Shown here: piece after piece, positions 14,002-26,993 of the stretch | Position numbering within the stretch: position 1 is the stretch's first letter | Layout of the letters: every line of letters begins with the position of its first letter | Source: a virus | Lineage: Duplodnaviria > Heunggongvirae > Uroviricota > Caudoviricetes | DNA length: 27,801 bases | IMG/VR virus record: IMGVR_UViG_2802429218_000003 | Coordinates: 1 to 27,801 of that record | Strand: one strand, 5' to 3' | Made by a program: the position numbers and the translations under genes | The notes under the pieces: generated by a model | The model's database searches: none | Seen by the model: only the letters and a program-made list of their open reading frames with translations | What the model was told of the DNA's origin: nothing

Positions 14002-14225
14002 TGTTCATTCCACGGCCAAAAACAGAGAAAGGAAACGACAAAGGCCCAAAAGTTCGTTTTCAGCACCTGTCGTTTCCTTTCTTTTCAGGGGGTGTTTTAA
14101 ATAAAAACATTAGGTTACGGCGAAGAAGAACGGAAACGCCTTAAACCGGAAAATTTTCATAAATAGCGAAAACCCGCGCGCCTGACGCCCCGTAGCCTGC
14201 CGGATCGCTGGAAAGGACCCACAAA
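14002..14225 (-). other. cos: cos region (cosB, cosN, cosQ) upstream of Nu1
   Basis: Minus-strand sequence between Nu1 and 14220 aligns with the recalled lambda left-end/right-end junction (TTTTCGCTATTTATGAAAATTTTCCGG...); the position equivalent to the lambda 12-nt cohesive end is 14179-14190. Confidence 0.7.
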
Positions 14226-19962: not shown

Positions 19963-20131
19963 CGTCTTCTTCCTCGTACATTGAGCTATTCGGATCGCTC
20001 ATCAGTTCTGCGCAGCAGTGCTCACACACATGAACTTCCAGCACATGCAGCTTCTGACTGCAGTTAGCGCACGTTAAAGCCCGCTCGACGCTTTCTTTCT
20101 GGTATTGAAGGGATTGGGATGGGCTAAGCAT
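19955..20131 (-). CDS. ninF: NinF
   Basis: Track ORF is 76 aa; Met at 20129-20131 gives 58 aa ([24 protein letters not shown]...) equal to lambda NinF; the start could also be Met at 20141-20143. Confidence 0.75.
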
Positions 20132-20531
20132 GGCTTTCACCATTAAAAAGTCGCTTGTAAGCATCAATGTCTCGTTTTGCTTCACCGAGCTTTCGTCTTA
20201 ATTCCATGTTTTCTGATTCAAGCTTTTCCATGTCTTGTTGGTATCGATCGCGGTGTTCTTTCCATGCTTTTCGATACGCCTTCATGTATGTCGTATTGGC
20301 CTTTCTCTTTGCCTGACGAACCGCATGGTGGTTTTTCACAAACCAGTCAGGGTCGTTAAATGCTGCTCTGGCGCATGTATACCAATAATTTGTTGCCTCC
20401 CTGTTTAGCCAATAAATACTGATAAATGGCAACCGGATAGACACCATTTTTCGTTGTGACTCTTTCTCGCCAAACATGTGTCCTTTTTTGATGCTAAGGC
20501 CAAATCCAGGTTGAATTAAAAGCATTGTCAT
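20124..20531 (-). CDS. Hypothetical protein (135 aa) inserted between ninE and ninF
   Basis: Track ORF is 147 aa; ATG at 20529-20531 overlaps the ninE stop (ATGA coupling) giving 135 aa; basic region and C-terminal heptad-like stretch; no recognisable lambda counterpart. Confidence 0.6.
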
Positions 20532-20704
20532 TTCCTCGCACGATGTCTTAGCCACCGGATATCCCACAGGTGAGCCGTGTAGTTGAAGGTTTTTACGTCA
20601 GATTCTTTTGGGATTGGCTTGCGTTTATTTCTGGAGCGTTTCGTTGGAAGGTATTTGCAGTTTTCACAGATTATGTCGGTGATGCTTCGTCGCTGTCGCC
20701 TCAT
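20528..20704 (-). CDS. ninE: NinE
   Basis: Met at 20702-20704 gives 58 aa ([30 protein letters not shown]...) matching recalled lambda NinE; start overlaps the stop of the methyltransferase gene. Confidence 0.8.
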
Positions 20705-21228
20705 GCCGCCCTCCTGACGCCCCGCCCGATCGCCATCAATGCCGCTTTGGATACGGTAGTAAACATCCGTCGAGGACTGATGAGCGGTCGCCAAATCAGC
20801 AGCATGGAGCCTTTGCTGTTTCCCTTCTTCTCCAGCCCTGTCGATGGTTCGATAAAATTAATCCGTCCATCAGTGATAATGCGAACTTCGTCGACACTCT
20901 CCAGAGCCTTGCTGAACCATCCGACTGACATATCCTCTGGCACAAGCATAACTACCGTCTGTCGCTGTTGTATGCACTGCTCAGCGGCTTTTTCCACCCA
21001 CGGCCTGATATTGCTGTACGGTGGGTTATTCCAGATTGCACCGTGGCTTATCCACTCAGAATTTAGCGCGTCGTCGGCCTCAGTTAGCCAGTGAGCGCAC
21101 AGAGCGTTTTTGTCGCTCGCAGCTGAATCCAGCCAGAATCCAAACTCAATATCCAGCGCATCAAAAAGCCAAAGCGGCGTTTGCCAGCAGTCCTTGTCGT
21201 GTGCTGGCGTATTTGATTTGATAGTCAT
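20701..21228 (-). CDS. Phage DNA N6-adenine methyltransferase (Dam-like)
   Basis: 175 aa from the Met at 21226-21228, which overlaps the ninB stop (ATGA); contains the NPPY catalytic motif of N6-adenine methyltransferases; sits where lambda has ninC/ninD. Confidence 0.85.
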
Positions 21229-21671
21229 GCAGCCTTCCCTTTTCGTTGTGACCATTCATACTCTCGCCGGGAGTCATCACTCCACCGCACGTTGCGCTCT
21301 GAGCCGAACCAGAACATGATTTCGATAAGCTCAGTCATGCTGGCCTTTCGCATTTTGCTGGTACGCACGCCAAGCATAACAACGCCACCGTCGATACCAG
21401 GCGCACTTCGTTGCTCCAGTTTTTTGGTCTTAAGCCACAGGGCAGTGAACAGGTCTTTCCAGTCCTCCGGCGCAAGTCTCTCTCCATGCCAAAGCACCTG
21501 ACGCGATACGTCCTGCAATAACGCCCACATAAGGCGGTTTTGAGGATTGCTCCGCTTTGGTTCTTTAATGTGGACTTCGTGAGGTGACTTGTCGTCGATC
21601 GGAAGTGAGAGTATTGCGTCTATGGCGTTGTTTCTGATTGCTTCGTTGCGAAGCATGTATATTTGCTTCAT
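21225..21671 (-). CDS. ninB: NinB recombination protein
   Basis: 148-aa ORF; matches recalled lambda NinB (146 aa) in sequence and position. Confidence 0.9.
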   Translation of the reverse strand: MKQIYMLRNEAIRNNAIDAILSLPIDDKSPHEVHIKEPKRSNPQNRLMWALLQDVSRQVLWHGERLAPEDWKDLFTALWLKTKKLEQRSAPGIDGGVVMLGVRTSKMRKASMTELIEIMFWFGSERNVRWSDDSRREYEWSQRKGKAA

Positions 21672-21678
21672 CGTTACC

Positions 21679-21885
21679 TCAACTCACAAAACGCCACGCC
21701 ACTTTTGCTACGACAACAGGCATAACACCGATAATCACCCACAGGAAAATGCTACCGAAAAGCACACCCACCAGGTCTTTACCTTCGCCTACCAACCGGA
21801 CAAAACTGCTGGCAACAACAATGAACGTCGCCACCATCCACATAGCACCGAGAATCCTCAATGCAGAGAAAATTAACTCAGCCAC
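21679..21885 (-). CDS. Small predicted membrane protein (68 aa, two hydrophobic helices), GTG start
   Basis: Track ORF; GTG at 21883-21885 preceded by GGGGGAGGG 8 nt upstream; the two hydrophobic segments are FIVVASSFVRLV and VLFGSIFLWVIIGVMPVVV; absent from lambda between ren and ninB. Confidence 0.55.
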   Translation of the reverse strand: MAELIFSALRILGAMWMVATFIVVASSFVRLVGEGKDLVGVLFGSIFLWVIIGVMPVVVAKVAWRFVS

Positions 21886-21900
21886 GATTTACCCTCCCCC

Positions 21901-21932
21901 AAATAAAAAGGCCTGCGATTACCAGCAGGCCT
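21901..21932 (-). terminator. tR2-like intrinsic terminator downstream of ren
   Basis: Minus-strand 8-bp perfect stem AGGCCTGC/GCAGGCCT with 8-nt loop followed by TTTTATTT. Confidence 0.6.
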
Positions 21933-24627: not shown

Positions 24628-25335
24628 ATGGTTCAGAATGAAAAAGTGCGCAAAGAATTCGCCCAGCGGCTAGCGCAAGCCTGTAAAGAAGCTGGTCTTG
24701 ATGAACATGGTAGGGGAATGGCCATAGCCCGTGCCCTTTCTCTTTCGTCCAAAGGCGTTAGCAAATGGTTTAATGCTGAGTCTTTACCGCGTCAGGAAAA
24801 AATGAATGCGCTTGCGAAATTTCTAAACGTTGATGTTGTTTGGCTTCAGCACGGCACTTCGTTAAATGGAGCGAATGATGAAGATACTCTTTCATTTGTT
24901 GGCAAATTTAAAAAAGGGTTAGTGCGCGTGGTTGGTGAGGCAATTCTTGGTGTTGATGGTGCCATCGAGATGACCGAAGAGCGCGATGGGTGGCTCAAAA
25001 TTTATAGCGATGATCCAGATGCCTTTGGCCTTCGTGTGAAAGGAGACAGCATGTGGCCCAGAATAAAATCAGGAGAATATGTACTCATTGAGCCTAACAC
25101 CAAAGTATTCCCGGGTGATGAGGTGTTTGTCAGAACCATCGAAGGACACAACATGATCAAGGTTCTTGGCTATGACAGAGATGGAGAATACCAATTTACA
25201 AGCATCAACCAGGACCACAGGCCAATAACGTTGCCTTATCATCAAGTAGCAAAGGTGGAGTATGTGGCTGGTATTCTGAAGCAATCTCGCCATCTGGATG
25301 ACATTGAGGCAAGGGAATGGCTGAAAAGTTCGTGA
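24628..25335 (+). CDS. cI: CI-type prophage repressor (N-terminal HTH, C-terminal LexA-like S24 peptidase domain)
   Basis: 235-aa ORF divergent from cro; HTH-like N-terminus; C-terminal domain with the GDSM serine motif (VKGDSMWPRI) typical of LexA/CI autocleaving repressors; sequence is not lambda CI. Confidence 0.9.
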   Translation: MVQNEKVRKEFAQRLAQACKEAGLDEHGRGMAIARALSLSSKGVSKWFNAESLPRQEKMNALAKFLNVDVVWLQHGTSLNGANDEDTLSFVGKFKKGLVRVVGEAILGVDGAIEMTEERDGWLKIYSDDPDAFGLRVKGDSMWPRIKSGEYVLIEPNTKVFPGDEVFVRTIEGHNMIKVLGYDRDGEYQFTSINQDHRPITLPYHQVAKVEYVAGILKQSRHLDDIEAREWLKSS

Positions 25336-25440: not shown

Positions 25441-26178
25441 TTGCAAAATAACTATCTACAGGTTATAGCCTATACTAGGCGCATGAATGATGGTATGACC
25501 AAGCCATTCCTTTGTACTTGCCAAGATGGGCTGGCTTACATAGTTAAAGGAAGGCCAAAACTTCGCCAAAAAGAGCTTGTAGCAGAATTTATTGCCGCCC
25601 ATCTAGCAAAACAGATAGGTCTGCCATGTCCTGATTTTTGCATTGTTGATGTTGATTGTGGGTTAATCGAGTTCATGCCTGACTTGCGTGGTGAGCTTTT
25701 GCCTGGACCTGCATTTGCTACCCGCTTTATTGAAAATGCATCAATCATAAATATTCAACAAGCAAGGAGTGCTGTAACCATTCAGGAACAAAAGAAAATA
25801 TTCTTCTTTGACCGCTGGATAAACAACGCAGACAGATCATTGACTGACATTGGTGGTAATGTAAACATAATTTACGATGCATTTAACAATAGGTATTACC
25901 TGATTGACCATAATCTGGCGTTCGCGCAGGATACAAGATCTCATGAGTATGATGTCCATGTGTATTCGCCGAATGGAAGACCGTGGGTTTTCGACATGCT
26001 CGACGAACCCGAACTGATGGATCTTGCAAATGATGCTATTAGTTCAGTAGAGGAGAAATTTAATCAGCTTCCGGATGAGTGGTTTTCAACCGATGAAGAA
26101 CGAAGGCTAATGCTGAATGAGATAATGAACTGCCTGAACAGAGTGCACGACAGAGAGTTTTGGAGTAACATCAAATGA
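25441..26178 (+). CDS. HipA-like kinase-domain protein (standalone C-terminal-domain type; start codon uncertain)
   Basis: 245-aa track ORF starting at TTG 25441 (AGGA 10-13 nt upstream); alternative ATG starts at 25483 and 25495. Segment ELVAEFIAAHLAKQIGLPCPDFCIV resembles recalled E. coli HipA (EYYCLLLAKELGLNVPDAEII); FFFDRWINNADRS aligns with the HipA catalytic loop VFQWLIGATDGHAKN but has Ser in place of His. Confidence 0.7.
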   Translation: MQNNYLQVIAYTRRMNDGMTKPFLCTCQDGLAYIVKGRPKLRQKELVAEFIAAHLAKQIGLPCPDFCIVDVDCGLIEFMPDLRGELLPGPAFATRFIENASIINIQQARSAVTIQEQKKIFFFDRWINNADRSLTDIGGNVNIIYDAFNNRYYLIDHNLAFAQDTRSHEYDVHVYSPNGRPWVFDMLDEPELMDLANDAISSVEEKFNQLPDEWFSTDEERRLMLNEIMNCLNRVHDREFWSNIK

Positions 26179-26993
26179 CCACACCATGCCTGTATAGCAT
26201 TATTAGATATGCTCCATATGCAGAAACCGAAGAGTTTGCTAATGTCGGTGTGGTTCTTTGTGCCCCGAAATTAGGTCAGTTTTGCTTTAAACTGACCCAA
26301 AGCAACAATGCCAGAGTAAAAAACTTTTTTCAGGATGAAATCATTTTCCCTCACGCGAGGGATGCAATTGCAAGAGAGCTAAAATTTGCTCAAGAGCAAA
26401 GTTATAAATTCAATTCTCCTGAAAAATTAGCAAATTTTTTCAACTACTTAATTGGCAGGAAAGAGTCAATCATTCATTTTAGCTCTGCAAGAGTTGCAAT
26501 GTCTGCTTGTCCACAAGACATGATGCACATACTTTTTAATAAGTTTGTACATCATTCAGAAATAACAAAAGAATCTCGTGAGACCATCCTGACGAGAGAG
26601 CTTAAGCATCGTTTCTCTCATTATAACGAACTCAGGAACGCCTTTAAAAAGGAAATGCTTGGTGGTGAACTAACGCGGTTTTCTGTACCATTTGTTGCCC
26701 GTCACGATGGAGAGATTTTATGTGCTATCAAACCCCTAACATTCACTCAGGACAAGCCTGAGAAAATGTTGGAGCACTGCGACTCTTGGACGGCCAAAAT
26801 TCTGCGCGCCGCCAGTGAAAAAATTTTATCTGTCTCAAATGTGTTATTTACGATAGATGCACCTCGCCAGCCAAGTGAGCTTGAGGTAAAAGCGATGAGT
26901 GAGATTCGTAAGACATTCGATGAGAAAGGTATAAATCACGTAGAGCATCAGGATGAAGCATCAATAGTAAAGTTTGCTAAGCAAGCAATTTAA
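26175..26993 (+). CDS. Hypothetical protein, partner of the HipA-like gene (possibly DUF3037-like)
   Basis: 272-aa ORF whose ATG (26175-26177) overlaps the upstream TGA (ATGA coupling); the N-terminal motif YSIIRYAPYAETEEFANVGVVL is tentatively recalled as characteristic of DUF3037; no catalytic motif recognised. Confidence 0.7.
   Translation: MTTPCLYSIIRYAPYAETEEFANVGVVLCAPKLGQFCFKLTQSNNARVKNFFQDEIIFPHARDAIARELKFAQEQSYKFNSPEKLANFFNYLIGRKESIIHFSSARVAMSACPQDMMHILFNKFVHHSEITKESRETILTRELKHRFSHYNELRNAFKKEMLGGELTRFSVPFVARHDGEILCAIKPLTFTQDKPEKMLEHCDSWTAKILRAASEKILSVSNVLFTIDAPRQPSELEVKAMSEIRKTFDEKGINHVEHQDEASIVKFAKQAI

What the first reader, a model, noticed from the sequence alone, without database searches (positions are those of the whole stretch)
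20701..21228. Dam-like N6-adenine methyltransferase replaces ninC/ninD in the nin region
An orphan methyltransferase with the NPPY motif sits between ninB and ninE with ATGA-type coupling at both ends. No restriction partner is visible in the window. Orphan phage Dam-like enzymes are generally thought to protect phage DNA from host restriction or to modulate host gene expression. Its target sequence is unknown.
Basis: partly seen in the sequence, partly recalled or inferred. Interest (0 to 1): 0.4.

Follow-up and report, generated by a model that had tools for sequence, protein, structure and literature searches.

The report
Known phage Dam methylase in nin region
This is an ordinary, already well-catalogued gene: the small GATC-specific DNA adenine methylase (M.EcoVT2Dam type) that many lambda-like and Shiga-toxin phages carry just after ninB, found at 95% or higher nucleotide identity in about 29% of complete E. 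coli genomes.

Summary
A 175-codon ORF lies on the minus strand at 20701-21228. It has NPPY at residues 68-71 and ATGA stop/start overlaps with ninB upstream and ninE downstream. It matches Pfam PF05869 (Dam, 4.8e-64) and the NCBIfam equivalog TIGR01712 'phage N-6-adenine-methyltransferase' (7.5e-79) over its full length. It is 172/175 identical to orf32 of phage VT2-Sakai, the only methyltransferase annotated in that phage. That enzyme is M.EcoVT2Dam, listed in the literature as GATC-specific. Phage T1 Dam, of the same Pfam family, has been shown by experiment to methylate GATC. The gene occurs at 95% or higher identity in 1566 of 5426 complete E. coli genomes, annotated between NinB and NinE in all listed records, and in 416 phage records. 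No restriction enzyme is present in the window, so 'orphan' stands. Compared with lambda, a 1.2-kb non-lambda block replaces ninB-ninC-ninD. The block carries a 68-aa ORF, a divergent ninB allele and dam. Salmonella phage Oslo has ninB-dam-ninC-ninD-ninE, so dam is a cassette in the slot after ninB, not a strict substitute for ninC/ninD. ATGA coupling is generic in nin regions, with six cases in this operon. The most likely role is topping up GATC methylation of fast-replicating phage DNA during lytic growth. Verdict: already known, low interest.

The parts
20701..21228 (-). dam: 175-aa phage N6-adenine DNA methyltransferase (M.EcoVT2Dam ortholog)
   Evidence: ORF and translation; PF05869 4.8e-64 full length; TIGR01712 equivalog 7.5e-79; phrog_111; PADLOC oMTase; 172/175 identical to VT2-Sakai orf32
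21016..21027 (-). codons for N68-P69-P70-Y71, the catalytic motif IV (NPPY)
   Evidence: Read directly from the sequence; N68, P70 and Y71 are invariant in an alignment of 9 diverse phage homologs
21115..21132 (-). codons for L33-D34-S35-A36-A37-S38, a conserved hD-x-AA segment; putative AdoMet-binding element (inferred)
   Evidence: D34 is invariant across the 9 homologs, and W15, T17 and P18 upstream are also invariant. The role is inferred from general knowledge of methyltransferases and was not tested.
21233..21240 (-). Shine-Dalgarno-like AGGGAAGG for dam, embedded in the 3' end of ninB
   Evidence: Sequence read on the minus strand
21225..21671 (-). ninB (orf) allele, 148 aa; its stop overlaps the dam start (ATGA)
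   Evidence: PF05772 1.5e-48; 44% identical to lambda NinB; junction
20528..20704 (-). ninE, 58 aa; its start overlaps the dam stop (ATGA); lambda homology resumes at 20697
   Evidence: PF05322 7e-44; blastn to lambda; junction
20698..21893 (.). non-lambda mosaic block (68-aa ORF + ninB allele + dam) in place of lambda 40635-42096 (ninB, ninC, ninD)
   Evidence: blastn of the window against lambda
21899..21932 (-). intrinsic terminator hairpin plus T-run, identical to lambda 40596-40627 between ren and ninB (lambda tR2 by my own knowledge); it places dam in the N-antitermination-dependent part of the pR transcript
   Evidence: Terminator scan; exact match in lambda. The tR2 name and N dependence are from established lambda biology and were not tested here.

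Best explanation
The ORF encodes a small, stand-alone, AdoMet-dependent DNA N6-adenine methyltransferase of the phage T1 Dam / HP1 Dam / VT2 Dam family (PF05869, TIGR01712). It is an allele of M.EcoVT2Dam and therefore most likely converts GATC to G(m6A)TC. It lies in the nin region downstream of the tR2 terminator. It should therefore be silent in the repressed prophage and made as a delayed-early protein, after N antitermination, during induction or infection. It is translationally coupled to ninB and ninE. Its likely job is to top up GATC methylation of rapidly replicating phage DNA, which host Dam cannot keep pace with. Packaged genomes are then fully methylated. In T1 this improves phage yield. 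It should also protect against restriction enzymes that cut unmethylated GATC (MboI/DpnII type) in the next host. Shown here: the ORF, the motifs, family membership, 98% identity to VT2-Sa orf32, the orphan context and the position relative to the terminator. Taken from the literature: GATC specificity, lytic-linked expression, partial methylation by host Dam, and the burst-size effect in T1. Inferred: that these properties transfer to this allele, and which benefit is under selection.
For: Family: full-length PF05869 (4.8e-64), TIGR01712 equivalog (263 bits against a cut-off of 97), phrog_111 'DNA methyltransferase', and PADLOC best hit 'orphan methyltransferase'. All 12 columns that are invariant across 9 diverse homologs (W15 T17 P18 D34 L55 W59 N68 P70 Y71 L95 R122 F125) are present, and all 9 homologs hit PF05869. 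Identity: 172/175 to VT2-Sakai orf32 (NP_050531). The differences are I60V, L149F and R168Q, all outside the invariant columns. orf32 is the only MTase annotated in VT2-Sakai. Specificity: M.EcoVT2Dam is listed as a GATC orphan MTase of prophage VT2-Sa (PMC6602927). T1 Dam is 33% identical and in the same Pfam family. It methylates GATC in a dam- host, and deleting it removes that methylation (PMC10470545). Role: T1 lacking dam is only partly methylated by host Dam, and its burst falls from about 52 to about 32. Lambda and P22 virion DNA is under-methylated by host Dam (PMC8022706). Timing: a hairpin identical to the one in lambda lies between ren and the block. The Phi24B gene, 100% identical to NP_050531, follows the lytic-cycle expression pattern. 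Substrate: there are 77 GATC sites in the window. Orphan status: no nuclease was found in the window.
Against: No activity was measured for this allele. The primary VT2 Dam paper (PMID 11720311) is not held, so its GATC assignment reaches me second-hand. That orf32 is M.EcoVT2Dam is deduced from its being the only annotated MTase in VT2-Sakai. The burst-size and partial-methylation data come from a virulent phage whose enzyme is only 33% identical. No fitness or anti-restriction effect has been shown for the lambdoid enzyme. Most E. coli strains are Dam+ and GATC-cutting R-M systems are not known to be common in E. coli, so the anti-restriction benefit is uncertain. The structural class and the way a 175-aa protein reads GATC are unresolved: there is no solved homolog and the single-sequence model was unusable.
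Confidence: 0.85

Rival explanations
1. It is an active adenine methyltransferase, but with a target other than GATC, or with relaxed specificity, as in some other prophage orphan MTases.
For: Specificity was not measured here. The family has no recognisable target-recognition domain and no solved structure. Other prophage-encoded orphan MTases are non-specific or relaxed: the M.EcoGI/GII homologs and the Serratia OS31 MTase.
Against: It is 98% identical to M.EcoVT2Dam, listed as GATC. The three substitutions are conservative or fall outside the invariant columns. The distant family member T1 Dam is also GATC-specific, which suggests specificity is conserved across the family. The non-specific enzymes named above were not compared with this ORF here; the OS31 enzyme is described in a paper about MT-A70-type MTases.
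Confidence: 0.05
2. It acts in the lysogen as an epigenetic regulator of host or prophage genes, for example supplementing host Dam to stabilise lysogeny.
For: The Phi24B dam product was picked up in lysogen cultures, and the authors speculated that it might supplement host Dam, which is needed for stable 933W lysogeny (PMC3342100).
Against: The same study classed its qPCR profile with genes linked to the lytic cycle, consistent with signal from spontaneously induced cells. The gene lies downstream of the tR2 hairpin in the pR operon, which is repressed in a lysogen (lambda biology from my own knowledge). Chromosomal GATC is already 99.9% methylated by host Dam in the one STEC strain measured, so an extra GATC methylase has almost nothing left to change.
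Confidence: 0.05
3. The selected benefit is not anti-restriction. Instead it is control of host GATC-reading machinery during phage replication and recombination. Full methylation would deny MutH its hemi- or unmethylated GATC nicking sites and deny SeqA its binding sites. This would protect Red/Orf/Rap-mediated recombination between diverged lambdoid genomes. The enzymatic activity is the same as in the best explanation; only the selected benefit differs.
For: dam sits directly after the recombination mediator ninB with overlapping codons in E. coli, Salmonella and Erwinia lambdoid phages, even at 44% identity. T1 dam lies next to a Holliday-junction resolvase. T1 lacking dam loses burst size in a host with no relevant restriction system, so there is a benefit unrelated to restriction.
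Against: The linkage may simply reflect the conserved nin gene order. Many phage records share homology with the window that ends about 6 nt from the ninB/dam junction (query position 1135 = window 21234), so the two genes reassort freely. In non-lambdoid phages the neighbours vary: an HNH endonuclease, a small hypothetical ORF next to a primase, another MTase, a terminase. No experiment links this Dam to MutH, SeqA or recombination.
Confidence: 0.1
4. It is an inactive remnant carried along in the nin mosaic.
For: nin genes are non-essential. SMRT studies of lysogens cannot separate its activity from that of host Dam.
Against: The ORF is intact, every family-invariant residue is retained, there is a good ribosome-binding site, and full-length copies at 95% or higher identity are kept in 1540 E. 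coli genomes.
Confidence: 0.02

Closest known systems
M.EcoVT2Dam (orf32, NP_050531, of Stx2 phage VT2-Sakai; also in Phi24B, HK97, Stx1/Stx2 phages, HK140, mEp213)
   Same: Length 175 aa, 172/175 identical, the same ninB-dam-ninE position with overlapping codons, and orphan status. Reported specificity is GATC.
   Different: Three substitutions (I60V, L149F, R168Q). Here the gene sits in a lambda-backbone prophage with lambda O, P, ren, Q and head/tail genes, not in a Stx phage.
Phage T1 Dam (AAP49979, 237 aa)
   Same: Same Pfam family PF05869; shared NPPY, W-x-TP and D-x-AA invariants; orphan. Shown by experiment to methylate GATC and to raise burst size.
   Different: Only 33% identical. 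T1 Dam has an N-terminal extension of about 45 aa and an internal insertion of about 14 aa. It comes from a virulent phage and lies next to a helicase and a resolvase, not in a nin region.
E. coli Dam / T4 Dam (alpha-class GATC methyltransferases)
   Same: Same reaction and same target (GATC to G-m6A-TC), so it works like host Dam.
   Different: There is no detectable sequence relationship. Only PF05869 was hit in Pfam, and neither the sequence nor the profile search of the PDB found any methyltransferase. The literature treats the shared specificity as convergence. The protein here is much smaller than host Dam (my own knowledge) and has no separate target-recognition domain.
Lambda ninC (PAPS-reductase-like) and ninD, the occupants of this slot in lambda
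   Same: Same position between ninB and ninE, and the same ATGA-coupled packing.
   Different: Unrelated proteins. Phage Oslo carries dam together with ninC and ninD, so these are independent cassettes.
MT-A70-type (beta-class) phage GATC methylases, e.g. Serratia PhiBZS1_p32 and its Escherichia phage HK639 homolog
   Same: Phage-borne orphan enzymes that mimic host Dam specificity.
   Different: A different Pfam family; the window protein hits only PF05869.

Membership tests
Phage N-6-adenine-methyltransferase (PF05869 Dam / TIGR01712; T1 Dam, HP1 Dam, VT2 Dam) | Full-length profile match above the curated cut-off | tested here: met
   PF05869: 215.5 bits against a cut-off of 28.1, residues 4-169 on profile positions 1-167 of 169. 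TIGR01712 equivalog: 263 bits against 97.05, residues 2-168 on positions 1-165 of 165.
Phage N-6-adenine-methyltransferase (PF05869 Dam / TIGR01712; T1 Dam, HP1 Dam, VT2 Dam) | Catalytic (D/N)PPY motif IV | tested here: met
   N68-P69-P70-Y71; N68, P70 and Y71 are invariant across 9 diverse homologs.
Phage N-6-adenine-methyltransferase (PF05869 Dam / TIGR01712; T1 Dam, HP1 Dam, VT2 Dam) | Family-invariant N-terminal W-x-TP and hD-x-AA elements, and C-terminal GR-x-x-F | tested here: met
   W15, T17, P18, D34, R122 and F125 are all present.
Phage N-6-adenine-methyltransferase (PF05869 Dam / TIGR01712; T1 Dam, HP1 Dam, VT2 Dam) | Small single-domain protein (about 140-240 aa) with no separate target-recognition domain | tested here: met
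   175 aa, with the Pfam model covering residues 4-169. The aligned homologs have coding regions of about 140-237 aa.
Phage N-6-adenine-methyltransferase (PF05869 Dam / TIGR01712; T1 Dam, HP1 Dam, VT2 Dam) | m6A methylation of GATC | not testable with these tools
   Inferred from 98% identity to M.EcoVT2Dam and from T1 Dam experiments.
Phage N-6-adenine-methyltransferase (PF05869 Dam / TIGR01712; T1 Dam, HP1 Dam, VT2 Dam) | Class I (Rossmann-like) AdoMet-dependent methyltransferase fold | tested here: inconclusive
   No solved homolog by sequence or profile. The single-sequence AlphaFold2 model had mean pLDDT 44 and was not used.
Orphan (solitary) methyltransferase | No cognate restriction endonuclease adjacent or nearby | tested here: met
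   The neighbours are NinB and NinE. The rest of the window is lambda-homologous, or encodes CII, a repressor, a HipA-like kinase, DUF3037, N, and unknown small phage proteins; three short non-lambda segments and the cro-position ORF were not scanned. No endonuclease is annotated in the complete VT2-Sakai genome. The best PADLOC hit is oMTase.
Type II restriction-modification system | Methyltransferase paired with a restriction endonuclease of the same specificity | tested here: not met
   No nuclease gene in the window. The PADLOC MTase_II hits are weaker (4.8e-07) than the oMTase hit (2e-19).
EcoDam/T4Dam-type (alpha-class) Dam | Sequence homology to the EcoDam/T4Dam family | tested here: not met
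   Pfam returned only PF05869. PDB sequence and profile searches returned no methyltransferase chain even at E up to 10. That solved EcoDam and T4Dam structures exist is from my own knowledge and the title of PMC4417163.

The most novel reading that the evidence does not exclude
The nin-region Dam may be functionally tied to the neighbouring recombination genes (ninB/orf, ninG/rap). By fully methylating GATC on replicating phage DNA, it would remove the hemi- or unmethylated sites that MutH needs and that SeqA binds. Host mismatch repair could then not abort recombination between diverged lambdoid genomes. A methylase would thereby promote the mosaicism of these phages. Separately, this family has no solved structure and no recognisable target-recognition domain, so how it reads GATC may be structurally new.
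Probability: 0.07. Interest if true: 0.5.

Novelty: already known. Interest (0 to 1): 0.07.

Why it matters
It matters little as a discovery. The gene is routinely named by RefSeq ('phage N-6-adenine-methyltransferase'), has a dedicated equivalog model, and a near-identical copy has a REBASE-style enzyme name and an assigned GATC specificity. Two open points remain and are modest: why lambdoid phages of Dam+ hosts keep a second, unrelated GATC methylase, and how a 175-residue enzyme with no separate recognition domain and no solved structure achieves GATC specificity. Practically, correct annotation matters for reading methylomes of E. coli lysogens and for predicting phage sensitivity to GATC-dependent restriction (MboI/DpnII type versus DpnI type).

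Tried and rejected
1. Solved structures: a sequence search and a profile search from 9 diverse homologs gave only chance-level hits (SdiA, Mediator Med31). No structural anchor was obtained.
2. Single-sequence AlphaFold2: mean pLDDT 44, so the model was unusable and I ran no fold search.
4. Primary papers were not held: VT2 Dam (PMID 11720311), Murphy et al. 2008 (PMC2223730), the phage orphan MTase review (PMC3837797) and Cheng et al. 1995 on nin terminators (PMC1206672). The GATC assignment for VT2 Dam and the tR2 naming therefore rest on secondary citation and my own knowledge.
5. Alternative start at 21255 (184 aa): rejected. It has no good ribosome-binding site, it would overlap ninB by 31 nt, the profiles begin at residue 2-4 of the 175-aa form, and RefSeq uses the 528-nt form.
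6. The 174-aa plus-strand ORF 20570-21094, antisense to dam: treated as a shadow ORF, although one GenBank-derived record annotates its equivalent as hypothetical.
7. Strict 'replacement of ninC/ninD': rejected because phage Oslo has dam plus ninC plus ninD.
8. A restriction partner among the non-lambda ORFs in the rexAB position: rejected. They are a HipA-like kinase and a DUF3037 protein.

Full report
OBSERVATION. The finding's coordinates hold a real gene on the minus strand. The ORF runs from ATG at 21228 to TGA at 20703-20701 and encodes 175 aa. The NPPY motif is at residues 68-71, window 21027-21016. At the 5' end, the ninB stop and dam start share GCTGC-ATGA (21228-21225). At the 3' end, the dam stop and ninE start share GCGGC-ATGA (20704-20701). 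A Shine-Dalgarno-like AGGGAAGG lies 4 nt upstream of the 21228 ATG, and AGGAGG lies 6 nt upstream of the ninE ATG. An in-frame ATG at 21255 would give 184 aa, but it lacks a comparable ribosome-binding site. The family profiles begin at residue 2-4 of the 175-aa form, and RefSeq annotates the 528-nt form. The neighbours are NinB (PF05772, 1.5e-48) and NinE (PF05322, 7e-44).

WHAT IT IS. The protein matches Pfam PF05869 'DNA N-6-adenine-methyltransferase (Dam)' over its whole length: 4.8e-64, 215.5 bits against a cut-off of 28.1. It matches the NCBIfam equivalog TIGR01712 'phage N-6-adenine-methyltransferase': 7.5e-79, 263 bits against 97. It also matches PHROG 111 'DNA methyltransferase', and its best PADLOC hit is 'orphan methyltransferase'. 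It is 172/175 identical to orf32 (NP_050531) of Stx2 phage VT2-Sakai, differing at I60V, L149F and R168Q. That orf32 lies in the same ninB-MTase-ninE arrangement and is the only methyltransferase annotated in that 60.9-kb genome. The literature names the VT2-Sa orphan enzyme M.EcoVT2Dam and lists its specificity as GATC (PMC6602927, table 3 and text, citing Radlinska & Bujnicki 2001). I aligned the window protein with eight diverse phage homologs from Erwinia, Aeromonas, Vibrio, Shewanella, Lactococcus, Gordonia, an E. coli Dhillonvirus and T1. Twelve columns are invariant, including W15, T17, P18, D34, N68, P70, Y71, R122 and F125, and the window protein has all of them. All nine sequences hit PF05869.

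HOW COMMON. The 528-nt gene is found at 95% or higher identity in 1566 of 5426 complete E. coli genomes, with 1540 holding a near-full-length copy and up to five copies per genome. All ten listed records annotate it as 'phage N-6-adenine-methyltransferase' flanked by NinB and NinE. One genome, strain RM10740, has a 100% identical copy in a prophage with a different backbone. The local region matches 416 phage records by megablast, including VT1-Sakai, Stx1- and Stx2-converting phages, mEp213 and ECP1; HK140 appeared in the protein search at 98.3%. By tblastn, 1902 phage records encode a homolog, including T1-like phages and many Klebsiella, Vibrio and Lactococcus phages.

CONTEXT. The window is a lambda-type prophage, 91-98% identical to lambda across L, M, H through Nu1, cos, the lysis genes, Q, ninI to ninF, ninE, ren, P, O and part of cII. 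Seven segments are not lambda-like. One of them, 20698-21893, replaces lambda 40635-42096 (ninB, ninC, ninD). It carries a 68-aa ORF (phrog_1165), a ninB allele only 44% identical in protein to lambda NinB, and dam. A second segment, 20098-20530, inserts a 133-aa ORF of unknown function (phrog_1511) between ninE and ninF, where lambda has 33 bp. So 'dam replaces ninC/ninD' is a fair description of gene order relative to lambda. It is not a rule, however: Salmonella phage vB_SosS_Oslo has ninB-dam-ninC-ninD-ninE. Many phage records share homology with the window that ends about 6 nt from the ninB/dam junction (query position 1135 = window 21234), so dam is an independently reassorting cassette. 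The ninB-dam adjacency with overlapping codons also holds in Erwinia phage phiEt88, where the enzyme is only about 44% identical. ATGA coupling is generic. This operon has six such junctions: O/P, P/ren, ninB/dam, dam/ninE, ninG/ninH and ninI/Q. The literature describes this as a feature of all lambdoid nin regions (PMC8022706).

ORPHAN STATUS. No restriction endonuclease is in the window. The lambda-homologous parts encode no R-M genes. The non-lambda ORFs that I scanned are CII, an S24/HTH repressor, a HipA-like kinase, a DUF3037 protein, an N-like antiterminator and two small unknown phage proteins. The cro-position ORF and three short non-lambda segments were not scanned. No endonuclease is annotated in VT2-Sakai either.

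HOW IT MOST LIKELY WORKS. The enzyme most likely transfers a methyl group from AdoMet to N6 of the adenine in GATC. The NPPY motif would hold the flipped adenine; this mechanism is inferred from general knowledge of N6-adenine methyltransferases. An intrinsic terminator hairpin at 21932-21909 is identical to lambda 40596-40627, which lies between ren and ninB. By my own knowledge this is lambda tR2. The gene should therefore be transcribed from pR only after N antitermination, that is, during lytic growth. This agrees with Phi24B. Its dam product is 100% identical to NP_050531, and its qPCR profile was grouped with genes linked to the lytic cycle (PMC3342100). For the biological role, the best data come from T1 Dam, which is in the same Pfam family and 33% identical. 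T1 DNA grown in a dam- host is DpnI-sensitive, and a dam deletion removes this. In a Dam+ host the deletion mutant's DNA is only partly methylated, and its burst falls from 52.3 to 31.9 (PMC10470545). [quoted passage not shown] The most likely function is therefore to top up GATC methylation on fast-replicating phage DNA. The window alone has 77 GATC sites. The benefit could be protection from enzymes that cut unmethylated GATC, or a restriction-independent gain in yield. Which of these is selected in lambdoid phages has not been shown.

RIVALS. (a) A different or relaxed specificity is unlikely, given 98% identity to an enzyme listed as GATC-specific and a GATC-specific relative at 33% identity. 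(b) A lysogen-expressed regulator of host genes is unlikely. The gene's position and the Phi24B expression pattern argue against it. Chromosomal GATC is also already 99.9% methylated in the one STEC strain measured. (c) Evasion of MutH or SeqA linked to the neighbouring recombination genes is not excluded. It is hinted at by the conserved ninB-dam adjacency and by the restriction-independent burst effect in T1, but it is untested. (d) An inactive remnant is very unlikely, because all invariant residues are present and the gene is widely conserved.

COMPARISON AND NOVELTY. The gene is a member of the T1/HP1/VT2 phage Dam family, and within it an allele of M.EcoVT2Dam. It works like E. coli Dam (same target) but is not a member of that family. 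Pfam returned only PF05869, and PDB searches returned no methyltransferase. The literature treats the shared specificity as convergence. One real gap surfaced: the family has no solved structure detectable by sequence or profile, and the single-sequence AlphaFold model was unusable (pLDDT 44). The fold class and the way so small a protein reads GATC therefore remain open. None of this makes the finding novel. It is a correctly recognised, routinely annotated gene. Verdict: already known, interest about 0.07.

Noticed in passing
window 25441-26993 (+): ORFs 25441-26178 and 26175-26993: Directly downstream of the non-lambda cI-like repressor (24628-25335), in the place of lambda rexA/rexB, sits an overlapping gene pair. 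It comprises a HipA-like kinase (PF20613, 2.6e-75) and a DUF3037 protein (PF11236, 4.5e-19). The pair matches both components of the PADLOC candidate defence system PDC-M66 (9.4e-19 and 8.9e-15). It is probably a lysogen-expressed exclusion or defence module.
   Followed up: partly
window 20124-20567 (-): A 133-147-aa ORF of unknown function (phrog_1511, 2.3e-86; no Pfam or NCBIfam family) is inserted between ninE and ninF, where lambda has only 33 bp. It is tightly packed against both neighbours and is also present in Stx1 phage and E. coli RM10740 prophage records as 'hypothetical protein'.
   Followed up: partly
window 21679-21885 (-): A 68-aa hydrophobic ORF with a GTG start (phrog_1165, 6.5e-36; no Pfam hit) lies between the tR2-like terminator and ninB. 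It is absent from lambda and annotated as hypothetical in E. coli RM10740.
   Followed up: no
window 20570-21094 (+): A 174-aa ORF runs antisense to dam and ninE. Its equivalent is annotated as a hypothetical protein (ORF b67) in the Stx1-converting phage record. It is most likely a shadow ORF and not a gene.
   Followed up: no
window 21225-21671 (-) and the junction at 21225-21234: The ninB allele is only 44% identical in protein to lambda NinB and is not detected by blastn. Many phage records share homology with the window that stops about 6 nt from the ninB/dam junction. The ninB/dam and dam/ninE junctions have near-identical sequence (GCTGCATGA and GCGGCATGA), which could serve as microhomology for cassette exchange.
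   Followed up: partly
window 14178-14191: Lambda coordinate 13 and lambda coordinate 48502 are joined here, so the window runs straight across the cos site. This is the arrangement expected for an integrated prophage or a circular or concatemeric form.
   Followed up: no
alignment A1 (the window protein plus L004 and L007-L013): The PF05869 phage Dam family has no experimentally solved relative detectable by sequence or profile search of the PDB, even though it occurs in about 1900 phage records.
   Followed up: partly
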